Assembly: GCA_902500055.1 (NCBI GenBank)
Contig: GCA_902500055.1_4131.1
Length of the DNA stretch: 64,000 nt
Strand: one strand, 5' to 3'
Source: Escherichia coli
GTDB taxonomy: Bacteria; Pseudomonadota; Gammaproteobacteria; Enterobacterales; Enterobacteriaceae
Below the pieces are notes generated by a model. The model saw only the letters and a program-made list of their open reading frames with translations. It ran no database searches and was not told the DNA's origin. Of the stretch, positions 1-48,064 are shown one piece after another (position 1 is the stretch's first letter; every line of letters starts with the position of its first letter). The translations under genes and the position numbers were made by a program.

Positions 1-2
1 CT

Positions 3-839
3 AATACTTTCCAACAAGGATATACTGACTGGGCTGTGTATTTCACTGGTATAGATGTTACCCAAATTAAAAAAATGTTATGTGGTTATACAGCATTTAC
101 ATTAATGAAAGACGGAACACTTTATGGAAGAGGATGGAATCGAAGTGGTTCATTAGGTTTAGGACATAAAAATTATGTTTCAGCGTGGACTGTACTTGAC
201 ACTAATGTGGATAATATATTTGGCGGTTACCTTGGCGATACATTGTTTAAGATTAAAAACGATGGAACTGTATATGGTTCAGGTTCAAATAACAGCTTTC
301 AAGTTAAAGCAACATCGGGTGATGCAACCACATTTGTTCCGTTGTTTGATGATATATCTTATGATATAAAATGCAGTTTTGTTTCTGGTGTTGGTTTTGT
401 AATGATAACATCTGATAATAAAATATATGCAACTGGAACTACTTTTGCTGGTAGTGGTGCACATAGTAAAGTTTTTGATGTTGGTTTTACTATAGGTGAT
501 ATGAGTAATATATATCATCCTGATTCGTTGGACTATTCGACTAGTGTTGTATTTTTAATTAATGCAGATACAAACAAACTAATAGCAACTGGGCATACCC
601 CATTTACGGGAAGTAGTTCAAGTTCCCTTCCATATTTTACAGCATTTCAAGAATTCAATTTTACATCGTTCAATTCGAATACACGATATAGTGGGTCTTT
701 ATACTGGAATACATTTTACGAAGGTAATAATGTATGGATGAATGGATATAATCCTAAAAATACGGGTGGAAAGAATTTCTCATTGTGTTCAATACCGTTA
801 GATACTATTATTACTAAGCAAATTGATTTACCTTTTTGA
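3..839 (+). CDS. RCC1-like beta-propeller repeat protein, 5' end cut by the window edge (array paralog 1)
   Basis: The frame is open from nt 3. It has RCC1-type glycine repeats (GWNRSGSLGLGHKN, GSGSNNSFQV) and a C-terminal ...QIDLPF like the other paralogs. Confidence 0.8.
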   Translation, partial: NTFQQGYTDWAVYFTGIDVTQIKKMLCGYTAFTLMKDGTLYGRGWNRSGSLGLGHKNYVSAWTVLDTNVDNIFGGYLGDTLFKIKNDGTVYGSGSNNSFQVKATSGDATTFVPLFDDISYDIKCSFVSGVGFVMITSDNKIYATGTTFAGSGAHSKVFDVGFTIGDMSNIYHPDSLDYSTSVVFLINADTNKLIATGHTPFTGSSSSSLPYFTAFQEFNFTSFNSNTRYSGSLYWNTFYEGNNVWMNGYNPKNTGGKNFSLCSIPLDTIITKQIDLPF

Positions 840-846
840 ATACTAT

Positions 847-911
847 GCCAGTACTCAAGTACTGGCTTTTATTTTTGATTAAATATAGTATAATGAATAA
901 AGGAGGGAAAT
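847..911 (+). promoter_or_regulatory. Intergenic cassette: terminator hairpin, conserved TATAAT box and SD
   Basis: Hairpin gccagtactcaagtactggc (847-866) plus a T-run, then TAAATATAGTATAATGAATAAAGGAGG. TATAAT lies at 889-894 and the ATG at 912. Confidence 0.75.
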
Positions 912-2105
912 ATGTTACCTTTTGCTAGAATGGTTAAATACGGGAATAAACTGCCTATTCCTGATCCAGTTGAGTTCACTGATGTTTTACAGCAACATTA
1001 TACTAATGCTATGTATCTACATAAGCCCACGAATACACTATACGGTTATGGTGGTAATAACTTGAGCCAATTAGGTCTAGGGAATCGATCGGCAGTTTCT
1101 ACTTTTACAGTACTGGCAACGCACTGTGCAGCCTTTTGGTTAGGCGTTCATGGATCATTGATGATTGACTTGGATAATAGAATATATTTCACAGGGAATA
1201 CAGTAGCATTCCCCGATTATGGAGATGCAACTCCAGTTAATGGTTATTTTAGAACATGGACTGATGTTACTGCCGCATTTAACAAAATAAATGTACACGC
1301 TAATTTAATCAAGAGTGTACATATAGGTGAAAGTACTAGAATATTACTACACGATGGAAGAGTCGTTGTTTGTGGTAAAAATGCAAATGCCGAATGTGGA
1401 ACAGGTAACCAAAATCCCATTCCAGTACTAACAGTTGTTACTGGTATGGGTGAAGTTTCTCAATTGGCGTGTTCATTACAGGGTACGCACTATCTCAAAA
1501 CAAATAAAGAAGCATGGTTTTGTGGTAAGGATAACTTTGGTGAAAGTGGTGGTGGGACTAGCTCATACGTTTTTACTAATAAATTAATACGAACCAACGT
1601 CGATTATATAAGTACTACTTATGATGTTACCTGGTGGTTTACTGCCGGTAGGGTGTACTGGAGTGGTAGAAACAATTCTGGACAAGCTGGGAATGGTACT
1701 ACTTCAACTACAAACCAATTAACTACAGTTCAGAATTCACAGGTTATAGTGAATATTAGTGATGGTTTCCTGTGTCCTAGTAATATGGGTAACTCAACAA
1801 TTGGTGCACCTATGGCTCAATACCCATCATATGTCAGGAGTGCAGGCATCAATACATATGGTCAAGAAGGGACGGGAAATACAACAATAATTACTTCGTG
1901 GGGGGCGTTTTCTTTAAGTGCGATACAGGGTGGATATGACAATGTTCTTATGGCATCCAAAGACTGGTCCAGAACAATAATTATAACTAAAGATTATAAA
2001 TTATATGCATGTGGGGGCTTTAACGGTTCAGGTAGTAAATTACCGGATGGTACTTACTTAATTAAAACATTAACATTAATGCCAACGCAGTTATGGCAAT
2101 CATAG
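912..2105 (+). CDS. RCC1-like repeat protein with MLPFARMVKYGN leader (paralog 2)
   Basis: Contains GGNNLSQLGLGNRS, GRNNSGQAGNGTTS and GINTYGQEGTGNT repeats. A strong SD lies upstream. Confidence 0.85.
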   Translation: MLPFARMVKYGNKLPIPDPVEFTDVLQQHYTNAMYLHKPTNTLYGYGGNNLSQLGLGNRSAVSTFTVLATHCAAFWLGVHGSLMIDLDNRIYFTGNTVAFPDYGDATPVNGYFRTWTDVTAAFNKINVHANLIKSVHIGESTRILLHDGRVVVCGKNANAECGTGNQNPIPVLTVVTGMGEVSQLACSLQGTHYLKTNKEAWFCGKDNFGESGGGTSSYVFTNKLIRTNVDYISTTYDVTWWFTAGRVYWSGRNNSGQAGNGTTSTTNQLTTVQNSQVIVNISDGFLCPSNMGNSTIGAPMAQYPSYVRSAGINTYGQEGTGNTTIITSWGAFSLSAIQGGYDNVLMASKDWSRTIIITKDYKLYACGGFNGSGSKLPDGTYLIKTLTLMPTQLWQS

Positions 2106-2114
2106 GAGAAAATC

Positions 2115-3224
2115 ATGTTACCTTTTGTTAGAATGTTTGATTATGGGAATATCACACCTGGTCCTAAAAATATAATTAAAGTTGGTGCTTCTACACAGGG
2201 TCAATTCTTATTGACAGATTCACATGATTTATATTACATAGGTAGAAATCAAGGTGGTGAATCTGGAAATGGAAATACCAACACAGTATCCTCATGGATA
2301 TTAGTAAGTACAGATGTTTCTAATTTTTTCGTGGGTGATCGTACACTTGTTATTATTAAAAATGATAATACGATATGGTCATCAGGTCAAACGTACTGGT
2401 TCACATCTTCCACAACTACTTCTTACAGTACTGTATTAGTTGATAGAACCAGTTGGTTCACAAATGCAATACCAGTAAGTGAAATTGCTAATATTGTATG
2501 TACATATGGTTTAATATTTGTACTTAGCACTAATTCAGTACTCTATGGTGCAGGGGCTAATGGATATCGTGGTGCTTTAGGTATTGGTTCATCATCAATT
2601 TACACATTAACTCAATGTGCTACTAATGTGCGTAAAGTAATGACGAATTCAAATGACAGTATGTATATTACATTAGATAATAAGTTATATAGTTCTGGGT
2701 GGAATGACAGGGGTCAGCATGGCACGGGGAACCGAACACAAATTAACACGTGGGGATTACGTAGTACTGGAGTAATAGATGCAGCTATTGGTGGACATAC
2801 ACTCAATTACTATAATGGTACATCATATTTCACATGTGGTACAACTCCAAACTTTCTTAGTTCAGATTCAACTACATTCAAAGCAGTTCCTGTAAGTACT
2901 TTACCTAATAATTCACCTTTGTTTATGACAAATTCAGAGGCAACAAGCACGGCTACGCAAATTATATTAACTAGTGCATATCAGAAAGGTATTGGGGGAA
3001 ACCGTGGTTTGGGATTAAACAATTCTCAAACGGGTGCTATCTATAGTGCTGCTAATTTACAATTACCTGTAGAAGTTAGTGAGATTAGTGATGTTGCTTT
3101 TAGTGACGGATTAACATCATTATTAACCAAAGACGGGAATGTATATAGTACTGGATCGTATTACGCCATTCCAGGTGCAAGTGCAGATGTTGCAGTCTTT
3201 ACTAAAATTGATTTACCAAAATAA
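2115..3224 (+). CDS. RCC1-like repeat protein with MLPFVRMFDYGN leader (paralog 3)
   Basis: Contains GWNDRGQHGTGNRT and GANGYRGALGIGSS repeats. It is joined to paralog 2 only by a GGAG SD, so the two form an operon. Confidence 0.85.
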   Translation: MLPFVRMFDYGNITPGPKNIIKVGASTQGQFLLTDSHDLYYIGRNQGGESGNGNTNTVSSWILVSTDVSNFFVGDRTLVIIKNDNTIWSSGQTYWFTSSTTTSYSTVLVDRTSWFTNAIPVSEIANIVCTYGLIFVLSTNSVLYGAGANGYRGALGIGSSSIYTLTQCATNVRKVMTNSNDSMYITLDNKLYSSGWNDRGQHGTGNRTQINTWGLRSTGVIDAAIGGHTLNYYNGTSYFTCGTTPNFLSSDSTTFKAVPVSTLPNNSPLFMTNSEATSTATQIILTSAYQKGIGGNRGLGLNNSQTGAIYSAANLQLPVEVSEISDVAFSDGLTSLLTKDGNVYSTGSYYAIPGASADVAVFTKIDLPK

Positions 3225-3230
3225 CATAAT

Positions 3231-3295
3231 GCCAGTACTCAAGTACTGGCATTTCTTTTTGGGGTAAATATAGTATAATGAATAAAGGAGGAATT
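3231..3295 (+). promoter_or_regulatory. Intergenic cassette: terminator hairpin, conserved TATAAT box and SD
   Basis: Hairpin gccagtactcaagtactggc (3231-3250), TATAAT at 3274-3279, AAAGGAGG, ATG at 3296. Confidence 0.75.
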
Positions 3296-4465
3296 ATGTT
3301 ACCTTTTGTGAGATTGTTTGATTACGGGAATATTGCACCTGATAAACCAAATATTAAAAAAATACTTGCTAACAACTATAATGTTGCTGTTTTAACAAAC
3401 AGTGGTGATTTATATGTGCGTGGTGATAATGCATATGGTATTTTGGGTTTAGGTCACAAAAATACTGTTACTACATGGACTTTTAGTACTTCTGGTGTTG
3501 AAGATTTTTGGATGGGAGCCACGTCGATAGTTGTTAAGAAAAGCAATAATGAAATATGGTACAGTGGAAGTTCAACAACTGTTGGTATGAAAGGGTCAGG
3601 AGTATCAATATGGACATCTGCTATGCCTATATTCAATACATTAACATTACCAATATTAGATATAGCCGTTAGTTATCAGACTACAAGTGTGTTACTATCA
3701 GACCAAACAATATGGAGTACTGGAGTAGGGTCGGATGGTCAGTTGGGTGATGGGACAACAATTAACCATGTTTCTGGTAGATTCGTCAAAAGTACTGTTC
3801 CTACCGCAGCAAATCAATTACCTGTTAAATTGTTTGCAAGTAATTTAATGCACGGTTATGTTACAAACCAAGGATGGTTATTTTATACAGGAAGAGTCAA
3901 TGCAGTTACAAGTTCAGGAAGTAAGTTATATAATATATATTATGGTGCTCCTACCAGCTTAAGTAATACAATTAATATAAAGTACTATGTGAATAATGGT
4001 ACTTCAATGGCAATGGCAATAGGCACTGATCCCACTGGTAAAACTATCATCGCAAATGGTGGTTCAAGAATATTTGGTGCACAAGCAGATGGGAAAGATG
4101 GTTCTCTCAAAGATTATAGAGCATTTGAGGTACAAACAGCATCACTAATGCCACCTGGTGATGTAGTAAGCATTGCTAACAATACTTCATATTATAACCA
4201 AGTTATTGCTACAACAGATGGTATATATTGTTGCGGCTACAATCAATCTACACAAGCTGGTATGTTAGGTATTGGTACATCTACTAATGCATTAGTATAT
4301 ACCAAAGCAATCGTACCTGATGGGTTTGATTATAGTAAGTCACAGATGGCAGGTAGTTATAACCGAACTTATATAACTGATGGTAATTTTGTATATAGCA
4401 CGGGAACAGATGTCACATATGGTGGCATTAGTAGTTTAGAATTTATATTAGATTCGCCAGTTTAA
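3296..4465 (+). CDS. RCC1-like repeat protein with MLPFVRLFDYGN leader (paralog 4)
   Basis: The start was moved to the MLPF ATG because the track ATG lies inside the SD box. Contains GDNAYGILGLGHKN and GSDGQLGDGTT repeats. Confidence 0.85.
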   Translation: MLPFVRLFDYGNIAPDKPNIKKILANNYNVAVLTNSGDLYVRGDNAYGILGLGHKNTVTTWTFSTSGVEDFWMGATSIVVKKSNNEIWYSGSSTTVGMKGSGVSIWTSAMPIFNTLTLPILDIAVSYQTTSVLLSDQTIWSTGVGSDGQLGDGTTINHVSGRFVKSTVPTAANQLPVKLFASNLMHGYVTNQGWLFYTGRVNAVTSSGSKLYNIYYGAPTSLSNTINIKYYVNNGTSMAMAIGTDPTGKTIIANGGSRIFGAQADGKDGSLKDYRAFEVQTASLMPPGDVVSIANNTSYYNQVIATTDGIYCCGYNQSTQAGMLGIGTSTNALVYTKAIVPDGFDYSKSQMAGSYNRTYITDGNFVYSTGTDVTYGGISSLEFILDSPV

Positions 4466-4471
4466 ATATAG

Positions 4472-4536
4472 GCCAGTACTTGATACTGGCTTTTCTTTTT
4501 TGTATTAAATATAGTATAATGAATAAAGGAGGAAAT
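4472..4536 (+). promoter_or_regulatory. Intergenic cassette: terminator hairpin, conserved TATAAT box and SD
   Basis: Hairpin gccagtacttgatactggc (4472-4490), TATAAT at 4515-4520, ATG at 4537. Confidence 0.75.
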
Positions 4537-5727
4537 ATGTTACCTTTTGCAAGAATGATGAATTATGGGAATATTGTGCCTGTACCACTACAAATTAAGA
4601 AAATAATACCAACTGATACTGAGGTTGTTGTACTTTATACCGACGGTCAACTATACGCACGAGGCAGTAATAGTTATGGGAAGTTTGGTAGAGGAAATAA
4701 TAATGCAGTAAGGTCGTGGACATTAATTAGAGAAAATGTCAAAGATTGCTGGATGACACAAGGAACTTTGTTAGTACAAGATAATGACTTAAATTATTTT
4801 TATTGTGGATATGGTAGTCATATTGGTTTAGAAACTAGTACTACATCATTTTTAAGTTATAACCAATATATTGAAAATTTGTACACACAAAGTTCAAGTA
4901 CTTCAATTAAACAGATGTATGCAGGTACTACGTGGTTTACTTTCTTAATGGATAATAATACAATATGGAGTACAGGGTGGAATAGTGCTAGACAATTCGC
5001 AGATGGTACAGGAACTACTTATCAAATATCAGATGGTTCATTTGTTAAAGCGGTAACACCAGATGTAGATATTGCACAAATACAGTCAACAAATTACTGT
5101 GCAATGTTTTTTGATACACAAAATAATTTATATATTGGTGGTAGTACATCTGGCATAAGTACTAGTACCACATGGACACCATTTAATGAATATACTTTGT
5201 ATAAGCCAAGTACCACATATACAAAAACATTACAATATACTGTTTGTTCATTTGGTGCTGTCAGTGCTTTAGTGGAGAATCCAAATACAGGAGCACGTCA
5301 GTTTCTAGTTGGTGGATTAGCTAATAATGGGGCATGGGGTAATAACACTACGAATAGTACAGCACTAGCAGTATTAGGGAATAATAGTACTACATTACCA
5401 TCAGGAACTTATTATTCAATCCATACTGGATATGCATCACAATCTAGTATACTAGTTACGAGTACAGGTGTATATGCAACTGGTTTAAATGCGAGTGGTT
5501 ATGCTGGTACATTAGGTGTTGGTTCTAATGTTACCATTGGTAAATTTACTGCATGTCCATTGCCGTCAGGAATAACATATTCTATGTATGATAAAATTAA
5601 AATATATCGCGGTTCGTATCGTACTTTCCTAACTGCTGATATGAAAAATATATATTCAACCGGAACGCATGATGATGGTGGTCCTCGTACAAATAGATAT
5701 GTACTGGATACTCCAAGACAGTTATAA
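4537..5727 (+). CDS. RCC1-like repeat protein with MLPFARMMNYGN leader (paralog 5)
   Basis: Contains GSNSYGKFGRGNNN and GLNASGYAGTLGVGSN repeats. The start was set at the MLPF ATG. Confidence 0.85.
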   Translation: MLPFARMMNYGNIVPVPLQIKKIIPTDTEVVVLYTDGQLYARGSNSYGKFGRGNNNAVRSWTLIRENVKDCWMTQGTLLVQDNDLNYFYCGYGSHIGLETSTTSFLSYNQYIENLYTQSSSTSIKQMYAGTTWFTFLMDNNTIWSTGWNSARQFADGTGTTYQISDGSFVKAVTPDVDIAQIQSTNYCAMFFDTQNNLYIGGSTSGISTSTTWTPFNEYTLYKPSTTYTKTLQYTVCSFGAVSALVENPNTGARQFLVGGLANNGAWGNNTTNSTALAVLGNNSTTLPSGTYYSIHTGYASQSSILVTSTGVYATGLNASGYAGTLGVGSNVTIGKFTACPLPSGITYSMYDKIKIYRGSYRTFLTADMKNIYSTGTHDDGGPRTNRYVLDTPRQL

Positions 5728-5733
5728 TATAAT

Positions 5734-5799
5734 GCCAGTACAGAGTACTGGCTTTTCTTTTTTGTATTAAATATATTATAATGAATAAAGGAGGGAATT
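5734..5799 (+). promoter_or_regulatory. Intergenic cassette: terminator hairpin, conserved TATAAT box and SD
   Basis: Hairpin gccagtacagagtactggc (5734-5752), TATAAT at 5777-5782, ATG at 5800. Confidence 0.75.
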
Positions 5800-6537
5800 A
5801 TGTTACCTTTTGGAAGAATGGTTAAGTACGGGAATAAAATTGAATATAAGCCACATGGTGAACAATTAATCACGACAATAGGAACAACACAATTTACAGT
5901 TCCTGCTGGCGTTACCGAAATATCAGTATGTGTTATTTCGCCGGGTGGTCAACGTGGTGCTGGTGGCGGCTTATCGTGGCGTAATAATATTCCGGTTACT
6001 AGTGGTGAGTACTTAAGTGTTTCTCTTACACATCCCAACACTACTACACCAGTTGAAAACGGTTTATATCGTGGAACTGAAAAACTATGTGTTAGCTTCA
6101 CTGGTGAATATAGGGTTGGTGGACTAGGTGGGAAAGCTGCTAACGCTATTAATGATGGTGGTGGTAATGGGGGCAACGCTGGTGTAAGTGGTGGTGCAGT
6201 CATTGGTGGTGGTGCTGGTGGCTACACTGGTAAAGGTGGTAACGGAGATGCAATCACTGGTGAAAATGGTGCTGGCGGCGGCGGTGGTGGTGGTGCATTC
6301 TATAATACCTCGTTCATTGGTACGGGTGGTGGTACTGGTATCATTGTTCAAGGTGCTAATGGCATTGGCGGTAGATACGATGGTTCATATAATGGTGGTG
6401 CTGGTAGTGGTGGTGCTGGTAAGATGTATGGTGGTGGTGGTAGTATATGGGATAATTTTTCTTATACGGCTGCTGGTGGTGGTGCTGTGCGAATAATATG
6501 GGGACGTGGGAGATATTATCCTAACAATTCAGTCTAA
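5800..6537 (+). CDS. Glycine-rich domain protein with the same MLPFGRMVKYGN leader (array member 6, not RCC1)
   Basis: Begins FTVPAGVTEISVCVISPGG, continues with long GGxGG tracts and ends GGGAVRIIWG. This is the layout of glycine-rich-domain proteins. Confidence 0.8.
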   Translation: MLPFGRMVKYGNKIEYKPHGEQLITTIGTTQFTVPAGVTEISVCVISPGGQRGAGGGLSWRNNIPVTSGEYLSVSLTHPNTTTPVENGLYRGTEKLCVSFTGEYRVGGLGGKAANAINDGGGNGGNAGVSGGAVIGGGAGGYTGKGGNGDAITGENGAGGGGGGGAFYNTSFIGTGGGTGIIVQGANGIGGRYDGSYNGGAGSGGAGKMYGGGGSIWDNFSYTAAGGGAVRIIWGRGRYYPNNSV

Positions 6538-6544
6538 AATATAG

Positions 6545-6608
6545 GCCAGTACAGAGTACTGGCTTTTCTTTTTGTATTAAATATAGTATAATGAATAAAG
6601 GAGGAAAT
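6545..6608 (+). promoter_or_regulatory. Intergenic cassette: terminator hairpin, conserved TATAAT box and SD
   Basis: Hairpin gccagtacagagtactggc (6545-6563), TATAAT at 6587-6592, ATG at 6609. Confidence 0.75.
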
Positions 6609-7718
6609 ATGTTACCTTTTGGGAGAATGTTAAAGTACGGGAATATAGCACCTGAAGATCCAAAGATAAAGAAAGTACTGTGCGGTCTTGATAATTTGTA
6701 CGTCCTCTATGGCGATGGCTCACTTTATGGTTGTGGGGTTAATACTTATTTTCAGTTAAACGTTGAAAATACAGCAACAAGAAATACTTGGATATTAATT
6801 TCAGAAGGTGTTACTGATGCATGGGCTGGGGCGTACAATATTCTTTATCTCAAGGGTGAAGAATTCATAATGCATGGAGTTACCACACAATTAGGCACAG
6901 GAAATACTACGATTCCGTTGGGTGGTTTGAATGTTACTTCTTCATTTCCACATATATCTAATATTAAAATGATATCAATTGGTGTAGATACAATGCACTA
7001 CGTTGATGCTAGTGGTTCGATTGTTTATGGTAGAGGCATGAATGGTAACTATTCACTCGGTGGTGGGTATTCCACGGCTCAGAGTACTTTTGTTTCAGTT
7101 ATTAATACCGGAGCTAATACAGTCCTTGATATATTGGGTACACAGAATAACACATTAATATTAACATCAAATGGTGAACTTCTCGGTTGTGGGAGTAGTG
7201 GGTATGGTTCACTTGGCGTAAGTCCAGGACAGTATACTACACTAGTAAGCAGGTTAACCAGTGTTAAACTGTTTGGTGGTAACAGTACTGGTACTCTTGC
7301 TTATTCAGCCAGCAATATATACAACGCAGGTTGGCAGTATATTGGTCAACTTGGTAACGGTATTACAACGAACACACAAGTATATCCATTTGCATTTAAC
7401 TCCACTACTATTGATAGTAAGATACATAAAATATCAAAATCAAGTGCGACTTCATATGTTAATATGTACGCAACAACCGAAGGAAAGATATACAGTACTG
7501 GTGAATTTGGTAGAAATGGTTCTGGTGGTGGTTTGAGTAGATTCACCAATACACTAACTTTAGATAATTACAACCCAGAAAAATCAGCATTATACACATG
7601 TGCACATTTTAGTATAGTATTTGATGGTAATAATCAAATTTATGCTTGTGGTTCTTTTTTGTATGTGCCAGGTCCTATTACCACGAACTCATGGTCTGCA
7701 ATTACAATGCCGAAATAA
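6609..7718 (+). CDS. RCC1-like repeat protein with MLPFGRMLKYGN leader (paralog 7)
   Basis: Contains GVNTYFQLN, GMNGNYSLGGG and GSSGYGSLG repeats. The start was set at the MLPF ATG. Confidence 0.85.
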   Translation: MLPFGRMLKYGNIAPEDPKIKKVLCGLDNLYVLYGDGSLYGCGVNTYFQLNVENTATRNTWILISEGVTDAWAGAYNILYLKGEEFIMHGVTTQLGTGNTTIPLGGLNVTSSFPHISNIKMISIGVDTMHYVDASGSIVYGRGMNGNYSLGGGYSTAQSTFVSVINTGANTVLDILGTQNNTLILTSNGELLGCGSSGYGSLGVSPGQYTTLVSRLTSVKLFGGNSTGTLAYSASNIYNAGWQYIGQLGNGITTNTQVYPFAFNSTTIDSKIHKISKSSATSYVNMYATTEGKIYSTGEFGRNGSGGGLSRFTNTLTLDNYNPEKSALYTCAHFSIVFDGNNQIYACGSFLYVPGPITTNSWSAITMPK

Positions 7719-7732
7719 TACTATAAAACTAT

Positions 7733-7796
7733 GCCAGTACTTTGTACTGGCTTTCTTATTTGTATTAAATATAGTATAATGAATAAAGGAGGAATT
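7733..7796 (+). promoter_or_regulatory. Intergenic cassette: terminator hairpin, conserved TATAAT box and SD
   Basis: Hairpin gccagtactttgtactggc (7733-7751), TATAAT at 7775-7780, ATG at 7797. Confidence 0.75.
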
Positions 7797-8966
7797 ATGT
7801 TACCTTTTGGAAGAATGTTAAAGTACGGAAATATTAAACCAACTCTTCCCGAAATAAAGAAATTGGATGGTAGTCAATTACATGTCGGATTACTTTATAG
7901 TACAGGGAATATGTATATGCGTGGTTCTGGATCGAACTACAAATTAGGAACAGGGAATGATAGTGATGTATTAGGTGGTTGGGTACATGTACCCTATGAA
8001 GTTGATGATTTTTGGGCGTGTGTATCCGGTACATTAATAAAGACGGTTGATAATAAGTTATATTGTGCCGGACTATACATGGGTGGATATTTTGGGGCTA
8101 GTGGTTCATATGTTAACTGGACTGAAGTAACTTCATTATTTGTAGGTATTGACGTGTCGCAAATAAAGAATATAGAATTTACGTCAGCAGGTACGTCAGG
8201 TAGTACACTAATATTGATGTTAGATGGTCGTTTATATGGGTTCGGTATGAACAGTAGATCTGAGTTAGGTGTTAATAACAAAGTTGTATCTCCCATTCTT
8301 ATAGATACTGGGGTAAGTGAAATAGGAGCACATAAGTTAGGCGGTTCATCGTTCCATTATATAAAAGGCGGTAAGTACTACAGATGTGGAACATCGGTTG
8401 GTAGTAATATTGGAAGTTCTTCTTTAACTACTTTTACGGTATTGAGTATTCCTGATAACGTTATATCTATGCAAATTTTATATGACAACGTACAGTTATT
8501 ATGTTTAGGAAGTTCTGGATATAGTATCTATATGGCTGGTTCTAATGATTATGGTGGAAGAGGTGTTGGTGGTTCTACTGTTTACACTACATTCAGGAAA
8601 ATAGATCTTACAGGATTTGGTGTTGTTCCCAGTGAAATACTATTTGAAAATGCCGGAAATGGTTATGTTAATATATCAACTGATAGTACTGGAGTATATA
8701 CATGTGGTGGTGGAGCGGGTGTTAACGGTTTAGGTAGACCAACTAATGTAATACCAAGTTCACAGTTGGGGGTAGTTCAGTTCAGTACTGGAGTAGAACA
8801 ATCAAATATAAGTCGTGTGTATTCACAGAGTTCGAGTTCTGTTATATATTGTATAGTCAATAATGAATTGTACTGGGCTGGGAGTAATTCATATTTTACT
8901 GATCAAACCACAAATACTGGTACACAATTTTCATTTATTAAGATGAAGAATATGCCTTCTGCTTAG
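7797..8966 (+). CDS. RCC1-like repeat protein with MLPFGRMLKYGN leader (paralog 8)
   Basis: Contains GSGSNYKLGTGN, GMNSRSELGVNN and GSNDYGGRGVGG repeats. Confidence 0.85.
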   Translation: MLPFGRMLKYGNIKPTLPEIKKLDGSQLHVGLLYSTGNMYMRGSGSNYKLGTGNDSDVLGGWVHVPYEVDDFWACVSGTLIKTVDNKLYCAGLYMGGYFGASGSYVNWTEVTSLFVGIDVSQIKNIEFTSAGTSGSTLILMLDGRLYGFGMNSRSELGVNNKVVSPILIDTGVSEIGAHKLGGSSFHYIKGGKYYRCGTSVGSNIGSSSLTTFTVLSIPDNVISMQILYDNVQLLCLGSSGYSIYMAGSNDYGGRGVGGSTVYTTFRKIDLTGFGVVPSEILFENAGNGYVNISTDSTGVYTCGGGAGVNGLGRPTNVIPSSQLGVVQFSTGVEQSNISRVYSQSSSSVIYCIVNNELYWAGSNSYFTDQTTNTGTQFSFIKMKNMPSA

Positions 8967-8973
8967 ATTTTAT

Positions 8974-9037
8974 GCCAGTACTTAACACTGGCTTTTCTTT
9001 TTGATTAAATATAGTATAATGAATAAAGGAGGATTTT
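8974..9037 (+). promoter_or_regulatory. Intergenic cassette: terminator hairpin, conserved TATAAT box and SD
   Basis: Imperfect hairpin gccagtacttaacactggc (8974-8992), TATAAT at 9015-9020, ATG at 9038. Confidence 0.7.
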
Positions 9038-10243
9038 ATGTTACCTTTTCCAAGGATGTTAAAATACGCAAATAAAATGAAAGTTCCTGAAGTGAAAGAA
9101 ATCTTTATGTACAATGGTTATAGTGCGTCAGTTATTCCAGCAACAGCACTCTTACTATTATATAAAAATGGAGACTTAATGGGTATAGGTGGAACTAGTT
9201 CACAAAACTATGGATTCGGAAATGGTGTACCTAATGCGAAAGTAAAAGAGTGGGCTTTAATATACCAAAATGTAAAACGTTTTAGAACAGCCCAAGGTTC
9301 TTTTAATTTAATCCAAACCGAAGATAATAAATTTTATTACAGTGGCGTAGGTAGAGCTATTGGTACAGGATTAAGTACTGTCAGTACTTATACTGATTGT
9401 ACTTCATATTTTACATCAGTATTCAATGCAACACAATTGTCGCAAATTAAGGACATTCAAATTGTAGGGGAGGGTATTTTTGTTTTACTTCAAAATGGTA
9501 CGCTATATGGAATGGGGGCCAATACACAGGGATATTTTGGTAATAACACAACCACAAGATTATCAACATTTACTTCAATTAATACGAATGTGGATAGTGT
9601 AAAAACAGGTTCAAGTGCAGTGATTGTGCAGAAAATTGATAAAACACTTTGGGTCACTGGTCAAAACACATGGGGTTCACTTGGTATAAGTAATGGTGAA
9701 ACTAACATTAGAGTATGGACACAAATGGGTGCATTAGCCAACAATACTGTTATACATTATGAACTTGGTGGGAGTGCATCATGGGTTGTATCTAAACACA
9801 ACACGAATAATACATATACAGTTCGTGCAAGTGGGATTCAATCGGAAGGTAACTTGGGTAATAGTTCAGCCGCTTCATCAGGGACAGTATTATCTACAAT
9901 CTCCACTCTACCAATATCAGATAATATGGAAATGAAATCAAATTCATTAACATATGGTGGGCTTACGGTTAAAACTAACAATTCACTTTATATGTGTGGT
10001 ATAAACACATATGGTAGGCTCGGTCGCGGTAATACCACATCAAGTACTACATTTGTAGTTCCAGTTGATGCACCTAAAGTTGGCAGCATCGAGTTATTCT
10101 GTCCAAGTGAATGTACAAATGTGTATATGGATAATCAAGGGGATGTGTATTTGAGTGGCTATATCCCACAAGCAGCAGGGACAACAGTTTCTGATTACTA
10201 CACTAAATTCCAATTATATCAAATACCCAGTCGTGGTATATAA
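9038..10243 (+). CDS. RCC1-like repeat protein with MLPFPRMLKYAN leader (paralog 9)
   Basis: Contains GANTQGYFGNN, GQNTWGSLGISNG and GINTYGRLGRGNTT repeats. Confidence 0.85.
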   Translation: MLPFPRMLKYANKMKVPEVKEIFMYNGYSASVIPATALLLLYKNGDLMGIGGTSSQNYGFGNGVPNAKVKEWALIYQNVKRFRTAQGSFNLIQTEDNKFYYSGVGRAIGTGLSTVSTYTDCTSYFTSVFNATQLSQIKDIQIVGEGIFVLLQNGTLYGMGANTQGYFGNNTTTRLSTFTSINTNVDSVKTGSSAVIVQKIDKTLWVTGQNTWGSLGISNGETNIRVWTQMGALANNTVIHYELGGSASWVVSKHNTNNTYTVRASGIQSEGNLGNSSAASSGTVLSTISTLPISDNMEMKSNSLTYGGLTVKTNNSLYMCGINTYGRLGRGNTTSSTTFVVPVDAPKVGSIELFCPSECTNVYMDNQGDVYLSGYIPQAAGTTVSDYYTKFQLYQIPSRGI

Positions 10244-10250
10244 AAAAAAT

Positions 10251-10315
10251 GCCAGTATTTTGTACTGGCATTTTTTTGTCCTAAATATAATAACGATTTA
10301 CATTTGGAGGATACA
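10251..10315 (+). promoter_or_regulatory. Divergent copy of the intergenic cassette
   Basis: Hairpin gccagtattttgtactggc (10251-10269) flanked by an A-run and a T-run. TATAAT at 10286-10291, GGAGGA SD, ATG at 10316. Confidence 0.6.
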
Positions 10316-11468
10316 ATGCTACCCTTTGGAAGAATTATCACATCATCAAAAAAGAACATACAACCTTCTGTAACAAAAATAGCTTCATCTGATACAACAG
10401 TTTTTGCCCTTATGTCAGATGGTACGTTGTACAGTAGAGGCTCTCAAGAGTTTGGGCAAATGGGTATAGGTAATATTATAACACAAACCAAATGGGTTTT
10501 GTGCAATACAAACGTAGAAGATATATGGGTGCGGGTATGAGTCAACCTTAATAAAAAAGAAAGATAATACGATGTGGTACGCTGGAAATGGTGCATCATT
10601 CGGATTATCAACTGATAAGTCAACAACATGGGCTTCTGCAAAGATAGTGTTTGATAGAATAACCGCCCTAGGCAAAACAATAAAACAAATTGCAGTTAGT
10701 GCAGGTGCATTAAGCGTATTATGCACAGACAACACTATATGGAATACGGGCTATGGTAGTTATGGTCAACTGGGAAATGGTAGAAGTACCGATTCACTTT
10801 CATCATTTGTACAAGGAACAGTACCTACTGGAGTAACACCATCCAAAATACTGGCAAATTTTCTTATGCAAGGATTTATTGGAACCGATGGGAGATTGTA
10901 TTATACTGGTGCAATATCAGGCGTAGGTACAACCGACATGACGTTATATTCAAAGTACACGTTATGTTCTCAAATAACTAATACCTATACGGTGAAAGAT
11001 TATACAACAAACTCAAGTTACTTCGCTTTTGCTATAGCAAGTAATAATAGTAGTAATAAATTATTTGCATATCATGGTGGTGGACAATACTTTGGTCAGT
11101 TAGCAAATGGTTCTACATCACAAACATATATTTCGTTAAGACAAACAACACAAGCACCAGGTGATATAATAAGAAGCAGTGTGGGTTATTCATATTTTTC
11201 TAATCATATTATAACTTCATTAGGTGTTTACGCAACTGGTTATAACACAGGCGATAACGCAGGTCAATTAGGTATAGGTACACAAACAGATGTCTCAGCC
11301 TATACCAAATGTGTACTACCAATAGAGATGAATATGAATAACGTATATGTTACAGCAACTTTATACAGAACTTACTTAACCGATGGTATACAAATTTACA
11401 GTACTGGACAATATGTTACAGACGGTGGAGTTGCCAGTACTGTATTTGTCAAAGATTCACCATTTTAG
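10316..11468 (+). pseudogene. RCC1-like paralog 10, reading frame broken by a +1 shift between 10518 and 10540
   Basis: The MLPFGRIITS... frame stops at 10538-10540. The +1 frame is open from 10518 and reads GCGYESTLIKKKDNTMWYAGNG, which continues the paralog alignment to 11468. Confidence 0.6.
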
Positions 11469-12111
11469 GAATATTGTACAAAGTGTATGCGGTTATTTTA
11501 GAACTCTTTTTAAATTCATCGTAAAGATAATTCAAAATTTTGGAGCATTCAATATACTTTTCAATATCTTTATGGATTAATGAGTACTGAAACATTAAAT
11601 CAGATGATATAGTGTAGGTACTACCTTTTAAACTGTTTAAAATATCACAGATTTCAGGGTTTACTGGTACTTCGTCAAAATTATCATCTAAAACATTTAT
11701 TTCAAAATCAAAGCTATCTTTGTTTTTGATTAATTTGATAATAGAATCACCATAAACATTATATTGTTTTAATGGATTTACTACAATGTTAAAAAGATTG
11801 GATGTATTACAATCAATATCCATAAAGTATGTATTATCATTGTACTTAATATTGAAACATCCGTACTCAATAAAATCACCAGGAGTTATTGATGAGTTTC
11901 TTCTCGTTTCAACATAAGAAGCTTTAATTTTGTTTTTATGTAAAAGAGTAATAAATTTCTTAGACTGTTTAGCACCAGCTAAGTAAGTATTATAACTTGG
12001 TCTTTTAAAGATTATAGGACTAGACTTCTCGCCAGAGAAATATTTTTTTATAAATTTACGTTGTTTAACAAAATAGTTTTTATAAAACAAACCTAATTTT
12101 GATTTCATCAT
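11449..12111 (-). CDS. Hypothetical protein, distant member of the F-Q-x-S motif family
   Basis: Intact 220-aa ORF, convergent with the array. Carries the C-terminal motif SDLMFQYSLI. Confidence 0.7.
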   Translation of the reverse strand: MMKSKLGLFYKNYFVKQRKFIKKYFSGEKSSPIIFKRPSYNTYLAGAKQSKKFITLLHKNKIKASYVETRRNSSITPGDFIEYGCFNIKYNDNTYFMDIDCNTSNLFNIVVNPLKQYNVYGDSIIKLIKNKDSFDFEINVLDDNFDEVPVNPEICDILNSLKGSTYTISSDLMFQYSLIHKDIEKYIECSKILNYLYDEFKKSSKITAYTLYNIPKMVNL

Positions 12112-12123
12112 AACTCCTTATAC

Positions 12124-12147
12124 ATCCAGTACTTAATAGTACTGGAT
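12124..12147. other. 10-bp perfect hairpin ATCCAGTACT-taat-AGTACTGGAT
   Basis: Inverted repeat read directly from the sequence. The T-run lies only on the + side, so its role as a minus-strand terminator is doubtful. Confidence 0.5.
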
Positions 12148-12153
12148 TTTTTA

Positions 12154-12525
12154 TTATGACATACGCTTATTATGAATGGAATTATGAATGGATTTTAAAT
12201 AATTATATAATTTTATCAATCCACTACCAGTAGCTACAAACAGTAGTGCTGTTGGTATCATACATCCAAACATGGTTATTAATTCATGTATTTCCATACC
12301 ATCACTATTTGGTCCCACATCAAATATAACAACCAAAACAACACCTAAAATGCTTAGACAATAATATCCCATAAAGACCATAAAAGTGATATATCCGGCA
12401 CTTGATTTAATATTAGATAACATATTATACACTGGATTAATACAGAAGAAGTATAATAACCATACCAGTGTTCCAGTACTGAACATAATAATTGAAATAA
12501 TGGAAAATATCTCACGGTAACTCAT
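12154..12525 (-). CDS. Small multi-pass membrane protein (TM family, cluster 1)
   Basis: Has several hydrophobic segments and a basic tail ...SIHNKRMS. It abuts its neighbour. Confidence 0.7.
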   Translation of the reverse strand: MSYREIFSIISIIMFSTGTLVWLLYFFCINPVYNMLSNIKSSAGYITFMVFMGYYCLSILGVVLVVIFDVGPNSDGMEIHELITMFGCMIPTALLFVATGSGLIKLYNYLKSIHNSIHNKRMS

Positions 12526-12526
12526 A

Positions 12527-12889
12527 TTATTTCCTCATACCCAAACGTTGGTGGATTTCAGAGATCTTTATATACAATAGTACCACAAGGTGCAGTACTA
12601 AACAACATATAATTACGGCTAATACCAATGAACATATCATAAGACCGAAGGTTATTGTATTCAAAGAGGATGTGAACAGTCCAATTATTAATACAATAAA
12701 ACCAAAATTGAATACTGTACCCAACACAGTATATGCTGGACTATATCTCTTTTGGATTACATCATATATATTTGATAATGGTCGCTTATGGAAGTACTTC
12801 CCAATGCACACGAATGCATTCAGTGAGAAGATAAATGTATACGCCATTACTAGTAATTGACCAACGAAAGATAATTCTATCCCGTTCAT
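12527..12889 (-). CDS. Small multi-pass membrane protein (TM family, cluster 1)
   Basis: The start was moved to MNGIELSF (12889), just after the upstream stop at 12891. It is hydrophobic and ends ...HQRLGMRK. Confidence 0.7.
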   Translation of the reverse strand: MNGIELSFVGQLLVMAYTFIFSLNAFVCIGKYFHKRPLSNIYDVIQKRYSPAYTVLGTVFNFGFIVLIIGLFTSSLNTITFGLMICSLVLAVIICCLVLHLVVLLYIKISEIHQRLGMRK

Positions 12890-12890
12890 A

Positions 12891-13259
12891 CTAACCTCGT
12901 TTACGTTTTTTAATTGTACTGTGCATCTTTTCGAAATAGGGAACCAAAACATATTGAACAGTTTGCCAGATAACCATTAGATTATGCACTGCACCACCAA
13001 GGATACCAAACACTAGAACAATAATTGCCATAATAGGATCACCGTCTACCATACCCCATTTAAAGATATGTAAAATCCAAGCAATGACTAGACAAAATAA
13101 ACTAAGCCAATACGTAATGAAAAATCCGGCTTGTAGTTCATAATCATCAGCAATTTCATCGTATACCGTTTCTAAAAATGATACACAAAAGAATTTACCA
13201 ATTATAACCACAGTACTAATAAACAACATAGCAGTTAAGATAATAAGAGCAATTTCCAT
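12891..13259 (-). CDS. Small multi-pass membrane protein (TM family, cluster 1)
   Basis: Hydrophobic segments with a basic tail ...STIKKRKRG. Confidence 0.7.
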   Translation of the reverse strand: MEIALIILTAMLFISTVVIIGKFFCVSFLETVYDEIADDYELQAGFFITYWLSLFCLVIAWILHIFKWGMVDGDPIMAIIVLVFGILGGAVHNLMVIWQTVQYVLVPYFEKMHSTIKKRKRG

Positions 13260-15462: not shown

Positions 15463-15494
15463 ATAATAGCAAAAGGGCCGACCTAAGTCAACCC
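15463..15494 (-). promoter_or_regulatory. Composite hairpin element (terminator-like stem with embedded -35 TTGACT) plus TATTAT -10
   Basis: The minus sense reads GGGTTGAC-TTAG-GTCGGCCC followed by TTTTGC. TTGACT (15486-15491), N17, TATTAT (15463-15468). Confidence 0.6.
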
Positions 15495-47672: not shown

Positions 47673-47729
47673 ATCCTATATAAGTAATATATAGTATTTA
47701 GTGCTATGAAATAGATTCGAACTTATTTG

Positions 47730-47886: not shown

Positions 47887-48064
<178 letters not shown>

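What the first reader, a model, noticed from the sequence alone, without database searches (positions are those of the whole stretch)
1..11468. Tandem array of ten self-contained gene cassettes: invariant MLPFxRMxKYGN leader fused to divergent RCC1-type propellers
Ten consecutive + strand genes fill 11.5 kb. Every complete copy begins MLPF[AVGP]R[MLI]xxY[GA]N, usually followed by P-x-x-x-I-K-K, and then diverges strongly. What survives is the RCC1-type G-x-N-x-x-G-Q/x-L-G-x-G repeat logic and a short C-terminal hydrophobic-D-[LST]-P ending. Seven of the nine junctions carry the same hairpin terminator, TATAAT box and AAAGGAGG cassette, and the last carries a divergent copy, so each paralog is its own transcription unit. 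Only the 2105/2115 junction is a plain operon join.

A constant short N-terminal peptide on a hypervariable binding-type domain is the architecture expected of a repertoire of interchangeable receptor-binding, decoration or effector modules that share one docking or targeting site. About 100 bp of near-identical DNA at each junction (the cassette plus the first 36 nt of the CDS) is a ready substrate for unequal recombination, meaning copy-number change or module shuffling. I do not know of a described phage system with this layout.
Basis: partly seen in the sequence, partly recalled or inferred. Interest (0 to 1): 0.85.

Follow-up and report, generated by a model that had tools for sequence, protein, structure and literature searches.

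The report
Tagged virion-protein cassettes in jumbo phage
A giant E. coli phage carries a row of swappable genes whose products all start with the same 12-residue peptide followed by different sugar- or protein-binding folds; these proteins are found in phage particles, so the peptide is most likely a shared tag that plugs interchangeable binding modules onto the virion.

Summary
The window comes from an Asteriusvirus, the 121Q/PBECO4/phAPEC6 group of E. coli jumbo phages. Bases 1-11468 hold ten + strand genes. Eight intact genes begin MLPFxR[ML]xxY[GA]N, and seven junctions carry an identical hairpin, TATAAT and AAAGGAGG block.

The array itself is already published: "eleven RCC1-like proteins" in phAPEC6, eight of them found in virions by mass spectrometry.

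The leader appears undescribed. In related jumbo phages (CBB, GAP32, Serratia BF, Yersinia and Erwinia phages) the same M[LI]PF leader heads RCC1, Kelch, laminin-G and glycine-rich bodies. AlphaFold leaves it disordered on two unrelated folds, and a proline-rich linker follows it. Amino acids are kept while codons vary.

Leader proteins are virion components in three published proteomes. Cassettes come and go between phages whose backbone is 97-98% identical, through PeSL-like junctions.

Best reading (about 0.5): a docking tag for interchangeable surface adhesin or decoration modules. The main rival is a T4 internal-protein-like capsid-targeting signal. I rate it a new variant of a known kind.

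The parts
1..839 (+). 3' part of an RCC1-like gene (type 'U'), cut by the window edge
   Evidence: ORF and translation. Pfam RCC1-like domain and phrog_4219. No ortholog at 55% identity or more in six related arrays.
840..911 (+). Junction cassette: hairpin 847-866, T-run, AAATATAGTATAATGAATAAAGGAGG at 881-906
912..2105 (+). Leader + RCC1-like propeller gene (type E), 397 aa
2115..3224 (+). Leader + RCC1-like propeller gene (type A), 369 aa. Joined to the previous gene by 9 nt with its own GGAG but no hairpin or promoter box
3225..3295 (+). Junction cassette (hairpin 3228-3253; box 3266-3291)
3296..4465 (+). Leader + RCC1-like propeller gene (type M), 389 aa
4466..4536 (+). Junction cassette (hairpin 4470-4492; box 4507-4532)
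4537..5727 (+). Leader + RCC1-like propeller gene (type B), 396 aa
5728..5799 (+). Junction cassette (hairpin 5734-5752; box 5769-5794, 1 mismatch)
5800..6537 (+). Leader + TNF-like beta-sandwich + glycine-rich domain gene (type F), 245 aa. Not RCC1
6538..6608 (+). Junction cassette (hairpin 6543-6565; box 6579-6604)
6609..7718 (+). Leader + RCC1-like propeller gene (type N), 369 aa. This is the modelled copy
   Evidence: AF2 pLDDT 90.5 with residues 1-11 below 50. Foldseek match to UVR8, RPGR, HERC2 and RCC1 at TM 0.75-0.79.
7719..7796 (+). Junction cassette (hairpin 7733-7751; box 7767-7792)
7797..8966 (+). Leader + RCC1-like propeller gene (type H), 389 aa
8967..9037 (+). Junction cassette (hairpin 8974-8992; box 9007-9032)
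9038..10243 (+). Leader (MLPFPRMLKYAN) + RCC1-like propeller gene (type I), 401 aa
10244..10315 (+). Diverged junction: strong hairpin at about 10250-10270, degenerate promoter box, GGAGG
10316..11468 (+). Last RCC1-like gene (type C) with a diverged leader MLPFGRIITSSKK. A 1-nt frameshift splits it into 10316-10540 and 10572-11468
   Evidence: The same frameshift is present in UB, 121Q, PBECO4 and CRJP21. The gene is further deleted in phAPEC6 and G17.

Best explanation
The region is the hypervariable virion-accessory locus of a 121Q/PBECO4-type E. coli jumbo myophage.

Each cassette encodes a small, probably low-copy virion protein built in three pieces:
- A conserved 12-residue N-terminal peptide, M-[LI]-P-F-x-[RI]-h-h-x-Y-G-N.
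- A short proline-rich linker.
- One of several unrelated ligand-binding folds. In this window these are RCC1-type 7-bladed propellers and one TNF-like/glycine-rich tail-fibre-tip fold. In sister genera Kelch propellers and laminin-G/concanavalin-like lectin domains also occur.

Inferred mechanism:
- The peptide is a docking or incorporation tag. It binds one common site on a structural protein of the virion, plausibly by adding an extended strand, since positions 2, 4, 6, 8, 10 and 12 are the conserved or hydrophobic ones.
- Any body carrying the tag is therefore mounted on the particle.
- The most likely location is the outside of the particle, on the hair-like head and tail fibres or other decorations. 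There the modules would act as a mixed set of adhesins.

The repertoire is remodelled by homologous recombination. The substrate is the roughly 100-bp repeat formed by the hairpin terminator, the promoter-like box, the ribosome-binding site and the leader codons. This adds, deletes or replaces whole cassettes and swaps leaders between neighbours.

Shown: the anatomy, the fold assignments, the portability and selective conservation of the leader, the mosaic cassette content, and the published virion association.

Inferred: that the leader is what mediates incorporation, the partner, the external location, adhesin function, and late per-gene transcription.
For: 1. Portable leader.
- A degenerate DNA pattern for the leader hit multi-copy clusters only on contigs of about 350-380 kb, plus one 109-kb fragment of the same kind. 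Two identical single hits on 20-kb contigs look like chance.
- The contigs hit include 121Q, CBB, GAP32 and Serratia BF.
- The ORFs found are RCC1, Kelch, Laminin_G_3, glycine-rich and one RCC1+Kelch fusion.
- Outside this clade the glycine-rich family has a different N-terminus, MLE[LM]L.

2. The leader is not part of the folds.
- AF2 models of two unrelated bodies are confident (pLDDT 90.5 and 93). Only residues 1-11 and 1-9 fall below 50.
- Residues 13-19 are 19% proline across 110 leader proteins.

3. Selection acts on the peptide.
- Among 117 distinct leader ORF starts, Y10 uses TAC 60 times and TAT 42 times. G11 uses GGG, GGA and GGT. R6 uses AGA and AGG.
- The amino acids at these positions are kept in 79-88% of ORFs.
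- In CBB the genes are operon-joined with no shared upstream cassette, yet the leader is kept.

4. Virion association in three genera.
- phAPEC6: gp003, 005, 006, 007, 009, 010, 549 and 551 (PMC7247149).
- CBB: 7 of the 9 leader proteins, namely 536, 537, 548, 549, 551, 552 and 553 (PMC5259590).
- Erwinia Eneladusvirus phages: "DNA condensation" proteins of 41.5-41.6 kDa and a 25.9-kDa "PE-PGRS" protein (PMC7760394).

5. Receptor-binding-type folds.
- Pam3 gp24 is a receptor-binding tip akin to the S16 gp38 adhesin.
- Some homologs are fused to fn3 domains.

6. Hypervariable island.
- The backbone 12000-36000 is 97-98% identical over 90% or more of its length in 24 phages. The array is only 28-38% covered.
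- Seven arrays hold at least 21 types, 9-13 per phage, in collinear mosaic order.
- dS between the same two genomes ranges from 0.016 to 0.93 across cassettes, with dN/dS 0.06-0.5.
- Leader variants are shared by adjacent paralogs, not by orthologs.

7. Unassigned hair-like fibres on head and tail are reported for 121Q, phAPEC6 and CBB.
Against: - No experiment or model here shows the leader binding anything. AlphaFold-multimer could not be run.
- Low pLDDT alone does not prove a docking role.
- Mass spectrometry does not say whether the proteins are outside or inside the capsid. The phAPEC6 authors favoured an inner-body role, and 121Q does have an inner body.
- Proteins of 25-40 kDa that are globular cannot themselves be the 120-nm hairs.
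- GAP32 has leader proteins but no hairs have been reported for it.
- The promoter box lacks a -35 element and has not been mapped.
- No specific ligand is predictable.
- The glycine-rich member was not in the phAPEC6 virion list. However, that gene is mis-annotated in the GenBank record.
Confidence: 0.5

Rival explanations
1. Capsid-targeting signal. The leader works like the capsid-targeting sequence of the T4 internal proteins. It directs a variable set of proteins into the prohead, so that they sit in or near the inner body and are injected with the DNA. They could then act as protein-binding inhibitors of host defences.
For: - A short constant N-terminal peptide on diverse proteins encoded in a hypervariable locus is exactly the T4 IP layout (my knowledge of T4 IPI-III and Alt).
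- The proteins are probably low-copy virion components.
- 121Q and phAPEC6 have an inner body whose proteins are unassigned.
- Propellers and lectin folds can be protein binders.
Against: - No conserved T4-type (L/I/V)xE cleavage site follows the leader. It occurs in 33 of 110 proteins at scattered positions, against 27 of 110 in a control stretch.
- The leader bears no similarity to known targeting sequences.
Confidence: 0.17
2. Hitch-hiking repeat. The leader has no function as a peptide. It is kept because it lies inside the recombining junction repeat (terminator, promoter, RBS and first codons), or because those codons serve translation initiation.
For: - Within the window the leader DNA is 84% identical between paralogs, and the identity extends upstream.
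- Leader variants are homogenised between neighbours, which indicates gene conversion.
Against: - The amino acids are kept with synonymous codon variation across genera.
- The leader persists in CBB, where the upstream cassette is absent and genes are operon-joined.
- It is kept on four or more unrelated bodies and is followed by a Pro-rich linker.
- Variable and invariant positions alternate in a pattern expected of a peptide, not of an RNA element.
Confidence: 0.08
3. DNA condensation. As the database name suggests, the RCC1-like proteins bind and organise the packaged genome.
For: - The annotation "DNA condensation protein" or "regulator of chromosome condensation" appears in many records.
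- The phAPEC6 paper makes this suggestion.
Against: - The name is transferred from eukaryotic RCC1, a Ran exchange factor. The fold is a generic binding scaffold, with 144,610 clusters matching the profile.
- The same leader and locus hold glycine-rich, Kelch and laminin-G proteins that have no link to DNA.
- Paralogs share only about 23% identity, which is unlike a conserved DNA-binding surface.
Confidence: 0.03
4. Assembly or host-directed factors. The proteins act in the infected cell, for example as chaperones for fibre assembly or as binders of host envelope components. On this view they only co-purify with virions.
For: - Spectral counts are low relative to the major capsid protein.
- Some tail-fibre chaperones stay on virions.
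Against: - They are detected in three independent virion preparations from three genera.
- Sequence coverage reaches 50% in CBB.
- A repertoire of 9-13 different chaperones would be unusual.
Confidence: 0.07

Closest known systems
RCC1-like protein array of phAPEC6, 121Q and PBECO4 (Wagemans et al. 2020, PMC7247149; GenBank annotations)
   Same: It is the same locus. Orthologs of eight of the ten window genes (all but the edge-cut first gene and type I) occur in phAPEC6, at 73-99% identity for the seven intact ones. Tandem duplication and virion association were already noted there.
   Different: That literature treats the genes as RCC1 paralogs with a possible DNA-condensation role. It does not mention the shared leader, the non-RCC1 cassette, the junction cassette, or the link to the Kelch and laminin-G virion proteins of CBB.
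PeSLs: composite promoter-early/stem-loop cassettes of T4-type phages (Arbiol et al. 2010, PMC2839356; Comeau et al. 2014, PMC4122927)
   Same: Both are a small repeated stem-loop terminator plus promoter block. Both flank variable genes in a hyperplastic region and serve as the point of homologous exchange for insertion, deletion and replacement of gene cassettes.
   Different: Here the promoter-like box has a TATAAT but no sigma-70 -35 element or UP element. The repeat also runs on through the RBS into the first 36 coding bases, so it carries a protein tag as well. True PeSL-like elements, with TTGAC in the hairpin arm, occur elsewhere in the window on the other strand.
T4 internal proteins with a capsid-targeting sequence
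   Same: A short constant N-terminal peptide on unrelated, fast-evolving proteins encoded in a hypervariable locus, giving probably low-copy virion components.
   Different: There is no cleavage motif after the leader and no sequence similarity. The bodies are lectin, propeller or fibre-tip folds rather than small basic proteins. Location in the head is not shown.
Small tail-fibre tip adhesins with glycine-rich domains (S16/T2-type gp38; Pam3 gp24; Bxb1 gp33 brush)
   Different: The N-terminal attachment element is a 12-residue peptide, not an alpha-helical bundle or domain. It is also shared with completely different folds. No sequence-level match to any solved structure was found.
Branched multi-tailspike systems with conserved N-terminal anchor domains (for example K64-1, RaK2, phiKp24, CBA120, G7C)
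   Same: One phage carries many receptor-binding proteins that share N-terminal attachment modules and differ in their C-terminal specificity domains.
   Different: Those anchors are folded domains of about 100 or more residues on large trimeric enzymes. Here the tag is a 12-residue peptide on 25-40 kDa non-enzymatic binding folds. The leader was not found on contigs of RaK2 or K64-1 length with two patterns, though that scan was not exhaustive.

Membership tests
RCC1-like domain proteins (Pfam PF25390, PF00415, PF13540) | RCC1-type repeat signature in the sequence | tested here: met
   Nine of ten genes hit WD40_RLD, RCC1 or RCC1_2 (E 1e-8 to 1e-23). Gene 5800-6537 has no hit.
RCC1-like domain proteins (Pfam PF25390, PF00415, PF13540) | Seven-bladed beta-propeller fold | tested here: met
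   AF2 model of 6609-7718 has pLDDT 90.5. Foldseek TM 0.75-0.79 to UVR8, RPGR, HERC2 and RCC1. Only one paralog was modelled.
RCC1-like domain proteins (Pfam PF25390, PF00415, PF13540) | Ran guanine-nucleotide exchange or chromatin binding (the basis of the 'DNA condensation' name) | not testable with these tools
   This is a functional property. The name is transferred by homology only.
PeSL mobile regulatory cassettes (T4-type phages) | Stable intergenic stem-loop acting as a terminator | tested here: met
   8-11 bp GC-containing hairpins plus T-runs at 8 junctions. z-scores are -2.1 to -4.8. Function as a terminator was not assayed.
PeSL mobile regulatory cassettes (T4-type phages) | Strong sigma-70 consensus early promoter (-35, -10, AT-rich UP) | tested here: not met
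   A TATAAT is present, but no TTGACA-like hexamer lies 16-18 nt upstream. The consensus scan did not call these sites. Flanking early genes do have full TTGAC-N17-TATAAT promoters.
PeSL mobile regulatory cassettes (T4-type phages) | Flank variable genes in hyperplastic regions and mark the borders of insertions, deletions and replacements between close relatives | tested here: met
   Whole-cassette presence or absence in seven arrays. The island has low coverage in a 97-98% identical backbone. Leader variants are uncoupled from body type. dS is heterogeneous.
PeSL mobile regulatory cassettes (T4-type phages) | Formation of mini-circles by recombination between neighbouring cassettes | not testable with these tools
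   Needs inverse PCR on infected cells or phage stocks.
T4-type internal proteins with a capsid-targeting sequence | Short conserved N-terminal peptide on otherwise unrelated proteins | tested here: met
T4-type internal proteins with a capsid-targeting sequence | Prohead-protease cleavage site (L/I)xE at the end of the targeting peptide | tested here: not met
   [LIV]xE occurs within the first 40 residues in 33 of 110 proteins at scattered positions. A control stretch gives 27 of 110.
T4-type internal proteins with a capsid-targeting sequence | Location inside the capsid and injection with the DNA | not testable with these tools
   Mass spectrometry shows virion association only.
Glycine-rich tail-fibre tip/adhesin domains (Pam3 gp24, S16 gp38, Pfam PF21722 relatives) | Glycine-rich motif lattice on a beta-sandwich, as in solved fibre tips | tested here: met
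Glycine-rich tail-fibre tip/adhesin domains (Pam3 gp24, S16 gp38, Pfam PF21722 relatives) | Sequence homology to a solved member | tested here: not met
   A profile search of the PDB found nothing at E<=1. Pfam gave no hit for the window protein itself.
Glycine-rich tail-fibre tip/adhesin domains (Pam3 gp24, S16 gp38, Pfam PF21722 relatives) | Sits at the distal end of a fibre and binds the host receptor | not testable with these tools
   Needs structural or genetic work.

The most novel reading that the evidence does not exclude
The 12-residue M[LI]PF..R...YGN peptide is a universal virion address tag of the Rak2-like jumbo phages. A single docking site, probably on the hair-like head and tail fibres, accepts any protein carrying the tag. 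Each particle would then display a stochastic mixture of lectin-like adhesins drawn from a cassette library, and that library is reshuffled by recombination at the tag-containing junctions. This would be a natural plug-and-display system. It would explain what the "hairs" are for, and it would offer a minimal handle for decorating jumbo phages with foreign binding domains.
Probability: 0.3. Interest if true: 0.75.

Novelty: new variant of a known kind. Interest (0 to 1): 0.6.

Why it matters
- It re-reads a widely propagated annotation. "DNA condensation protein" or "regulator of chromosome condensation" would become a family of tagged virion accessory proteins.
- It links proteins treated as unrelated in different papers: the RCC1 array of phAPEC6 and 121Q, the Kelch and laminin-G structural proteins of CBB, and the "PE-PGRS" protein of the Erwinia phages. 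All would belong to one system defined by a shared N-terminal peptide.
- If the peptide is a docking tag, it gives a direct experimental handle on three things. These are the unexplained hair-like appendages of these phages, how host-range or adhesion repertoires are diversified in jumbo phages, and how to engineer display on large therapeutic phages.
- The junction shows that PeSL-type shuffling can carry a protein-coding address tag as well as regulatory signals.

Tried and rejected
1. The exhaustive profile search with the RCC1 alignment was swamped by giant multi-repeat RCC1 proteins. It found 144,610 clusters, and the top 150 were all 1,400-7,200 aa. It said nothing about the leader family.
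2. The word-based homolog search with an RCC1 paralog reached only 20 proteins. It was useful only for showing MIPF/MLPF leaders in metagenome fragments.
3. A PDB sequence search with the glycine-rich profile found nothing. Only fold comparison worked.
4. NCBIfam gave no hits for five proteins.
5. Rfam on 1-12500 gave only sub-threshold chance matches. The junction is therefore not a known RNA family.
6. PVP-SE1 gp19 was examined to see whether the alternative MLE[LM]L N-terminus marks an analogous array in rV5-like phages. There the gene is single, among replication and early genes, so the lead was dropped.
7. The right-flank gene (11449-12111) was tried as a synteny anchor to find the locus in RaK2. 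It is Asteriusvirus-specific. Absence of the leader from RaK2 and K64-1 therefore rests only on two DNA patterns.
8. Paper supplements were searched for N-terminal peptides of the leader proteins. No peptide-level data are held.
9. I considered that the leader is the propeller's closing "velcro" strand. I rejected this because it is disordered in the model, and the same peptide sits on a non-propeller fold.
10. I considered a secretion or lipoprotein signal. I rejected it from the sequence: there is no hydrophobic core, no twin arginine and no lipobox.

Full report
**What the window is.** Bases 1-12000 match 37 phage records, 33 from Escherichia and 4 from Salmonella. All the records I opened (UB, G17, 121Q, PBECO4, CRJP21, phAPEC6) belong to the genus Asteriusvirus, jumbo myophages of about 350 kb. 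Identity is 85-98%, but only 28-38% of the query is covered in any one record. The adjacent 24 kb (12000-36000) is 97-98% identical over 90% or more of its length in 24 records. The finding therefore sits in a hypervariable island within a very conserved backbone.

**Check of the observation.** The ORF list shows ten consecutive + strand genes between 1 and 11468.
- A six-frame scan finds MLPF at nine gene starts (912, 2115, 3296, 4537, 5800, 6609, 7797, 9038, 10316) and nowhere else in the 64 kb.
- Seven junctions share GCCAGTAC-loop-GTACTGGC, a T-run, and the exact block AAATATAGTATAATGAATAAAGGAGG followed 4-5 nt later by ATG. The block occurs 7 times against 0.00 expected.
- The hairpins are called as terminator-like sites, 14 found against 4.8 expected. 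They fold well, with z-scores down to -4.8.
- The 10316 junction is a diverged copy, and 2105/2115 is a plain join.
- In an alignment of the RCC1 paralogs and metagenomic relatives, bodies share 22-25% identity. M1, P3, F4, R6, Y10, N12 and one C-terminal Pro are invariant.

Three points need correction:
- Gene 5800-6537 has no RCC1 signal and is a different fold (see below).
- The last gene is interrupted by a 1-nt frameshift. The frameshift is shared by UB, 121Q, PBECO4 and CRJP21. The gene is further deleted in phAPEC6 and G17, so it is a decaying copy at the array edge.
- The first gene is cut by the window edge.

**What is already published.**
- The phAPEC6 paper (PMC7247149) reports "eleven similar RCC1-like proteins". 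It lists gp003, 005, 006, 007, 009, 010, 549 and 551 in the virion proteome. It also speculates about DNA condensation or the inner body, and cites the array as evidence for tandem duplication. The GenBank map shows these are the orthologous array.
- Hua et al. [quoted passage not shown]
- None of these papers mentions a shared N-terminal peptide. Neither does the 2021 comparative-genomics survey, the 2026 review of jumbo phages, or a full-text search for "MLPF".

**The leader is a portable module.** A degenerate DNA pattern for M-[LI]-P-F-x-R-h-x-x-Y-[GA]-N was scanned against IMG/VR.
- It hit clusters only on contigs of about 350-380 kb, plus one 109-kb fragment. Two identical single hits on 20-kb contigs are probably chance.
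- The contigs hit include 121Q, CBB (378,379 bp), GAP32 (358,663 bp) and Serratia phage BF (357,154 bp).
- The ORFs found there begin M[LI]PF and continue as several body types: RCC1 propellers (360-400 aa), glycine-rich proteins (245-280 aa), proteins of 215-245 aa, proteins of 285-307 aa, and one of 667 aa.
- Pfam assigns Laminin_G_3 (concanavalin-like lectin), Kelch propellers, and an RCC1+Kelch fusion.
- In CBB all nine genes CBB_536, 537 and 548-554 carry the leader.
- A second leader flavour, MLPFPIIS, co-occurs in BF and in Yersinia and Erwinia-type contigs.
- Outside this clade the glycine-rich family starts MLE[LM]L or MFEMML instead. The N-terminal peptide is therefore lineage-specific, not body-specific.

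**Structure.**
- AF2 on the RCC1 paralog 6609-7718 gives pLDDT 90.5 and pTM 0.89, with only residues 1-11 below 50. Foldseek matches seven-bladed RCC1-like propellers (UVR8, RPGR, HERC2, RCC1) at TM 0.75-0.79.
- AF2 on 5800-6537 gives pLDDT 93, with only residues 1-9 below 50.
- Pam3 gp24 is a TNF-like plus glycine-rich receptor-binding fibre tip, related in architecture to the S16 gp38 adhesin.
- The same peptide is thus a disordered extension on two unrelated, confidently folded bodies.
- Across 110 leader proteins, residues 13-19 are 19% proline, as expected of a tether.

**Selection versus hitch-hiking.**
- Among 117 distinct leader ORF starts, positions that the search did not constrain keep their amino acid with mixed codons. 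Y10 is kept in 87% (TAC 60, TAT 42). G11 is kept in 79% (GGG, GGA, GGT). N12 is kept in 88% and R6 in 84% (AGA, AGG).
- Positions 5 and 9 vary freely. Positions 7 and 8 stay hydrophobic.
- CBB keeps the leader although its genes are operon-joined without the repeated upstream cassette.
- This argues that the peptide itself is under purifying selection.
- The even positions (L2, F4, R6, h8, Y10, N12) being the constrained ones would fit an extended strand with one face buried in a partner. That is my inference and was not tested.

**Virion association.** Three independent proteomes place leader proteins in purified particles:
- phAPEC6.
- CBB, where 7 of the 9 leader proteins are "structural proteins" with up to 50% coverage.
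- The Erwinia Eneladusvirus phages, which are 96-100% identical in these proteins to Serratia BF. There, "DNA condensation" proteins of 41.5-41.6 kDa and a 25.9-kDa "PE-PGRS family protein" were identified, with spectral counts of about 1-2% of the major capsid protein. Equating the PE-PGRS protein with the BF glycine-rich leader ORFs is my inference from size and composition.
- The CBB authors noted that four of the six virion proteins absent from the apparently hairless GAP32 lie in this cluster. They could not assign the whiskers.

**Cassette dynamics.**
- Clustering the leader ORFs of seven Asteriusvirus arrays at 55% identity gives at least 21 types, 9-13 per phage. Their order is collinear but mosaic (roughly E A M L D B F G J K N H I C). 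Only A, B and the decayed C are present in all seven.
- Between the window and phAPEC6, dS of orthologous cassettes runs from 0.016 (F) through 0.05-0.10 (N, B, H) to 0.32 (A), 0.59 (M) and 0.93 (E). dN/dS is 0.06-0.5 throughout. The bodies are functional, and neighbouring cassettes have very different histories.
- Leader variants follow neighbours rather than orthologs. Adjacent window genes A and M share VR[ML]FDYGN, while their orthologs elsewhere have GRM[VI]KYGN. In G17 the three adjacent genes L, D and B share ARMMNYGN.

**The junction.**
- Functionally it resembles the PeSLs of T4-type phages. Those are composite stem-loop/promoter cassettes that flank variable genes and mediate modular shuffling.
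- It fails one defining feature, because there is no sigma-70 -35 element. The - strand early genes next door have textbook TTGAC-N17-TATAAT promoters. Five of them have the -35 inside a conserved hairpin, which is a true PeSL-like element.
- The array is therefore probably transcribed by a different programme, plausibly late, as expected for virion proteins. This has not been mapped.

**Interpretation.**
- I commit to a docking or incorporation tag that mounts interchangeable binding modules on the virion, most likely externally. Confidence is about 0.5 for the whole chain.
- It is higher for "virion accessory repertoire with a functional shared tag", and lower for "external adhesins on the hairs".
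- The chief rival is a T4 internal-protein-like capsid-targeting signal. It is weakened by the absence of a cleavage motif (33/110 against 27/110 in a control stretch) and by the fibre-tip and lectin character of the bodies. Mass spectrometry alone cannot exclude it.
- Hitch-hiking of the leader, a literal DNA-condensation role, and co-purifying non-structural proteins are less likely, for the reasons given under the rivals.

**Novelty and score.**
- The array, its RCC1 annotation and its virion association are known.
- Gene shuffling through terminator-promoter cassettes and constant N-terminal targeting or anchor elements are known kinds of things.
- Four points appear undescribed. First, one 12-residue peptide unites RCC1, Kelch, laminin-G and glycine-rich virion proteins across several genera of Rak2-like jumbo phages. 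Second, the peptide lies inside the recombining junction. Third, one cassette is a tail-fibre-tip fold. Fourth, the "DNA condensation" label is probably wrong.
- I rate this a new variant of a known kind, with interest 0.6.

Noticed in passing
window 15476-15492, 20392-20408, 22237-22253, 22999-23015, 26240-26256 (- strand): There are five copies of a second, different composite element, GTTGACTTnGGTCRRCC. It is a hairpin whose 5' arm contains the -35 TTGAC, followed by a T-run and a TATAAT-like -10, upstream of - strand early genes. It looks like a genuine PeSL-type terminator/promoter.
   Followed up: partly
window 10316-11468; L002, L004, L027, L028: The last array gene carries the same 1-nt frameshift in five phages, yet its 298-codon downstream part stays open in all of them. 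In phAPEC6 and G17 it is reduced to 52 and 44 codons. It could be a slowly decaying pseudogene, or less likely a programmed frameshift.
   Followed up: partly
window 12154-13259 and further left-to-right on the - strand; L026 10580-13496: A run of small (110-140 aa) multi-pass membrane-protein genes lies directly beside the leader array. A similar run of "putative membrane proteins" (CBB_539-546) flanks the leader cluster in CBB. The two arrays may be syntenically linked across genera.
   Followed up: no
window 47729-54023 (- strand): Five tRNA genes (Thr, Asn, Ser, Arg, Gly) are interleaved with five small paralogous ORFs of about 55-60 aa at 52130-54485.
   Followed up: no
protein P0002 (metagenome contig, 26,689 bp): This is an 81%-identical relative of the glycine-rich cassette. 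Its annotated protein starts MNKGGNKIEYKP: the upstream in-frame ATG inside the junction box is fused directly to residue 12 onwards. The leader is missing, and there is also an internal deletion in the Gly-rich part. It is either a natural leader-less variant or an assembly artefact.
   Followed up: no
L001 7325-8060 (phAPEC6) and L027/L028 'Q59' ORFs: In the phAPEC6 GenBank record the glycine-rich cassette is annotated only as a 100-aa fragment (gp004, 7716-8018). This may explain its absence from the published virion list. In PBECO4 and CRJP21 the gene at this array position is cut to a 59-codon leader ORF.
   Followed up: partly
L010 (Serratia phage BF), L012, L065: Two leader flavours coexist in one genome, MLPFPIIS(N/H)T and MLPFxRxxxYGN, with hybrids such as MLPFPIMNKYGN. 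This may mean two docking sites, or a tolerant single site.
   Followed up: no
proteins P0005-P0062; L029 9001-9843 (PVP-SE1 gp19): Glycine-rich family members from phages of about 150 kb (PVP-SE1 and other ~150-kb contigs) and other contigs share their own short N-terminal motif, MLE[LM]L or MFEMML. In PVP-SE1 the gene is solitary, among replication genes. Whether this is another lineage-specific tag is unknown.
   Followed up: partly
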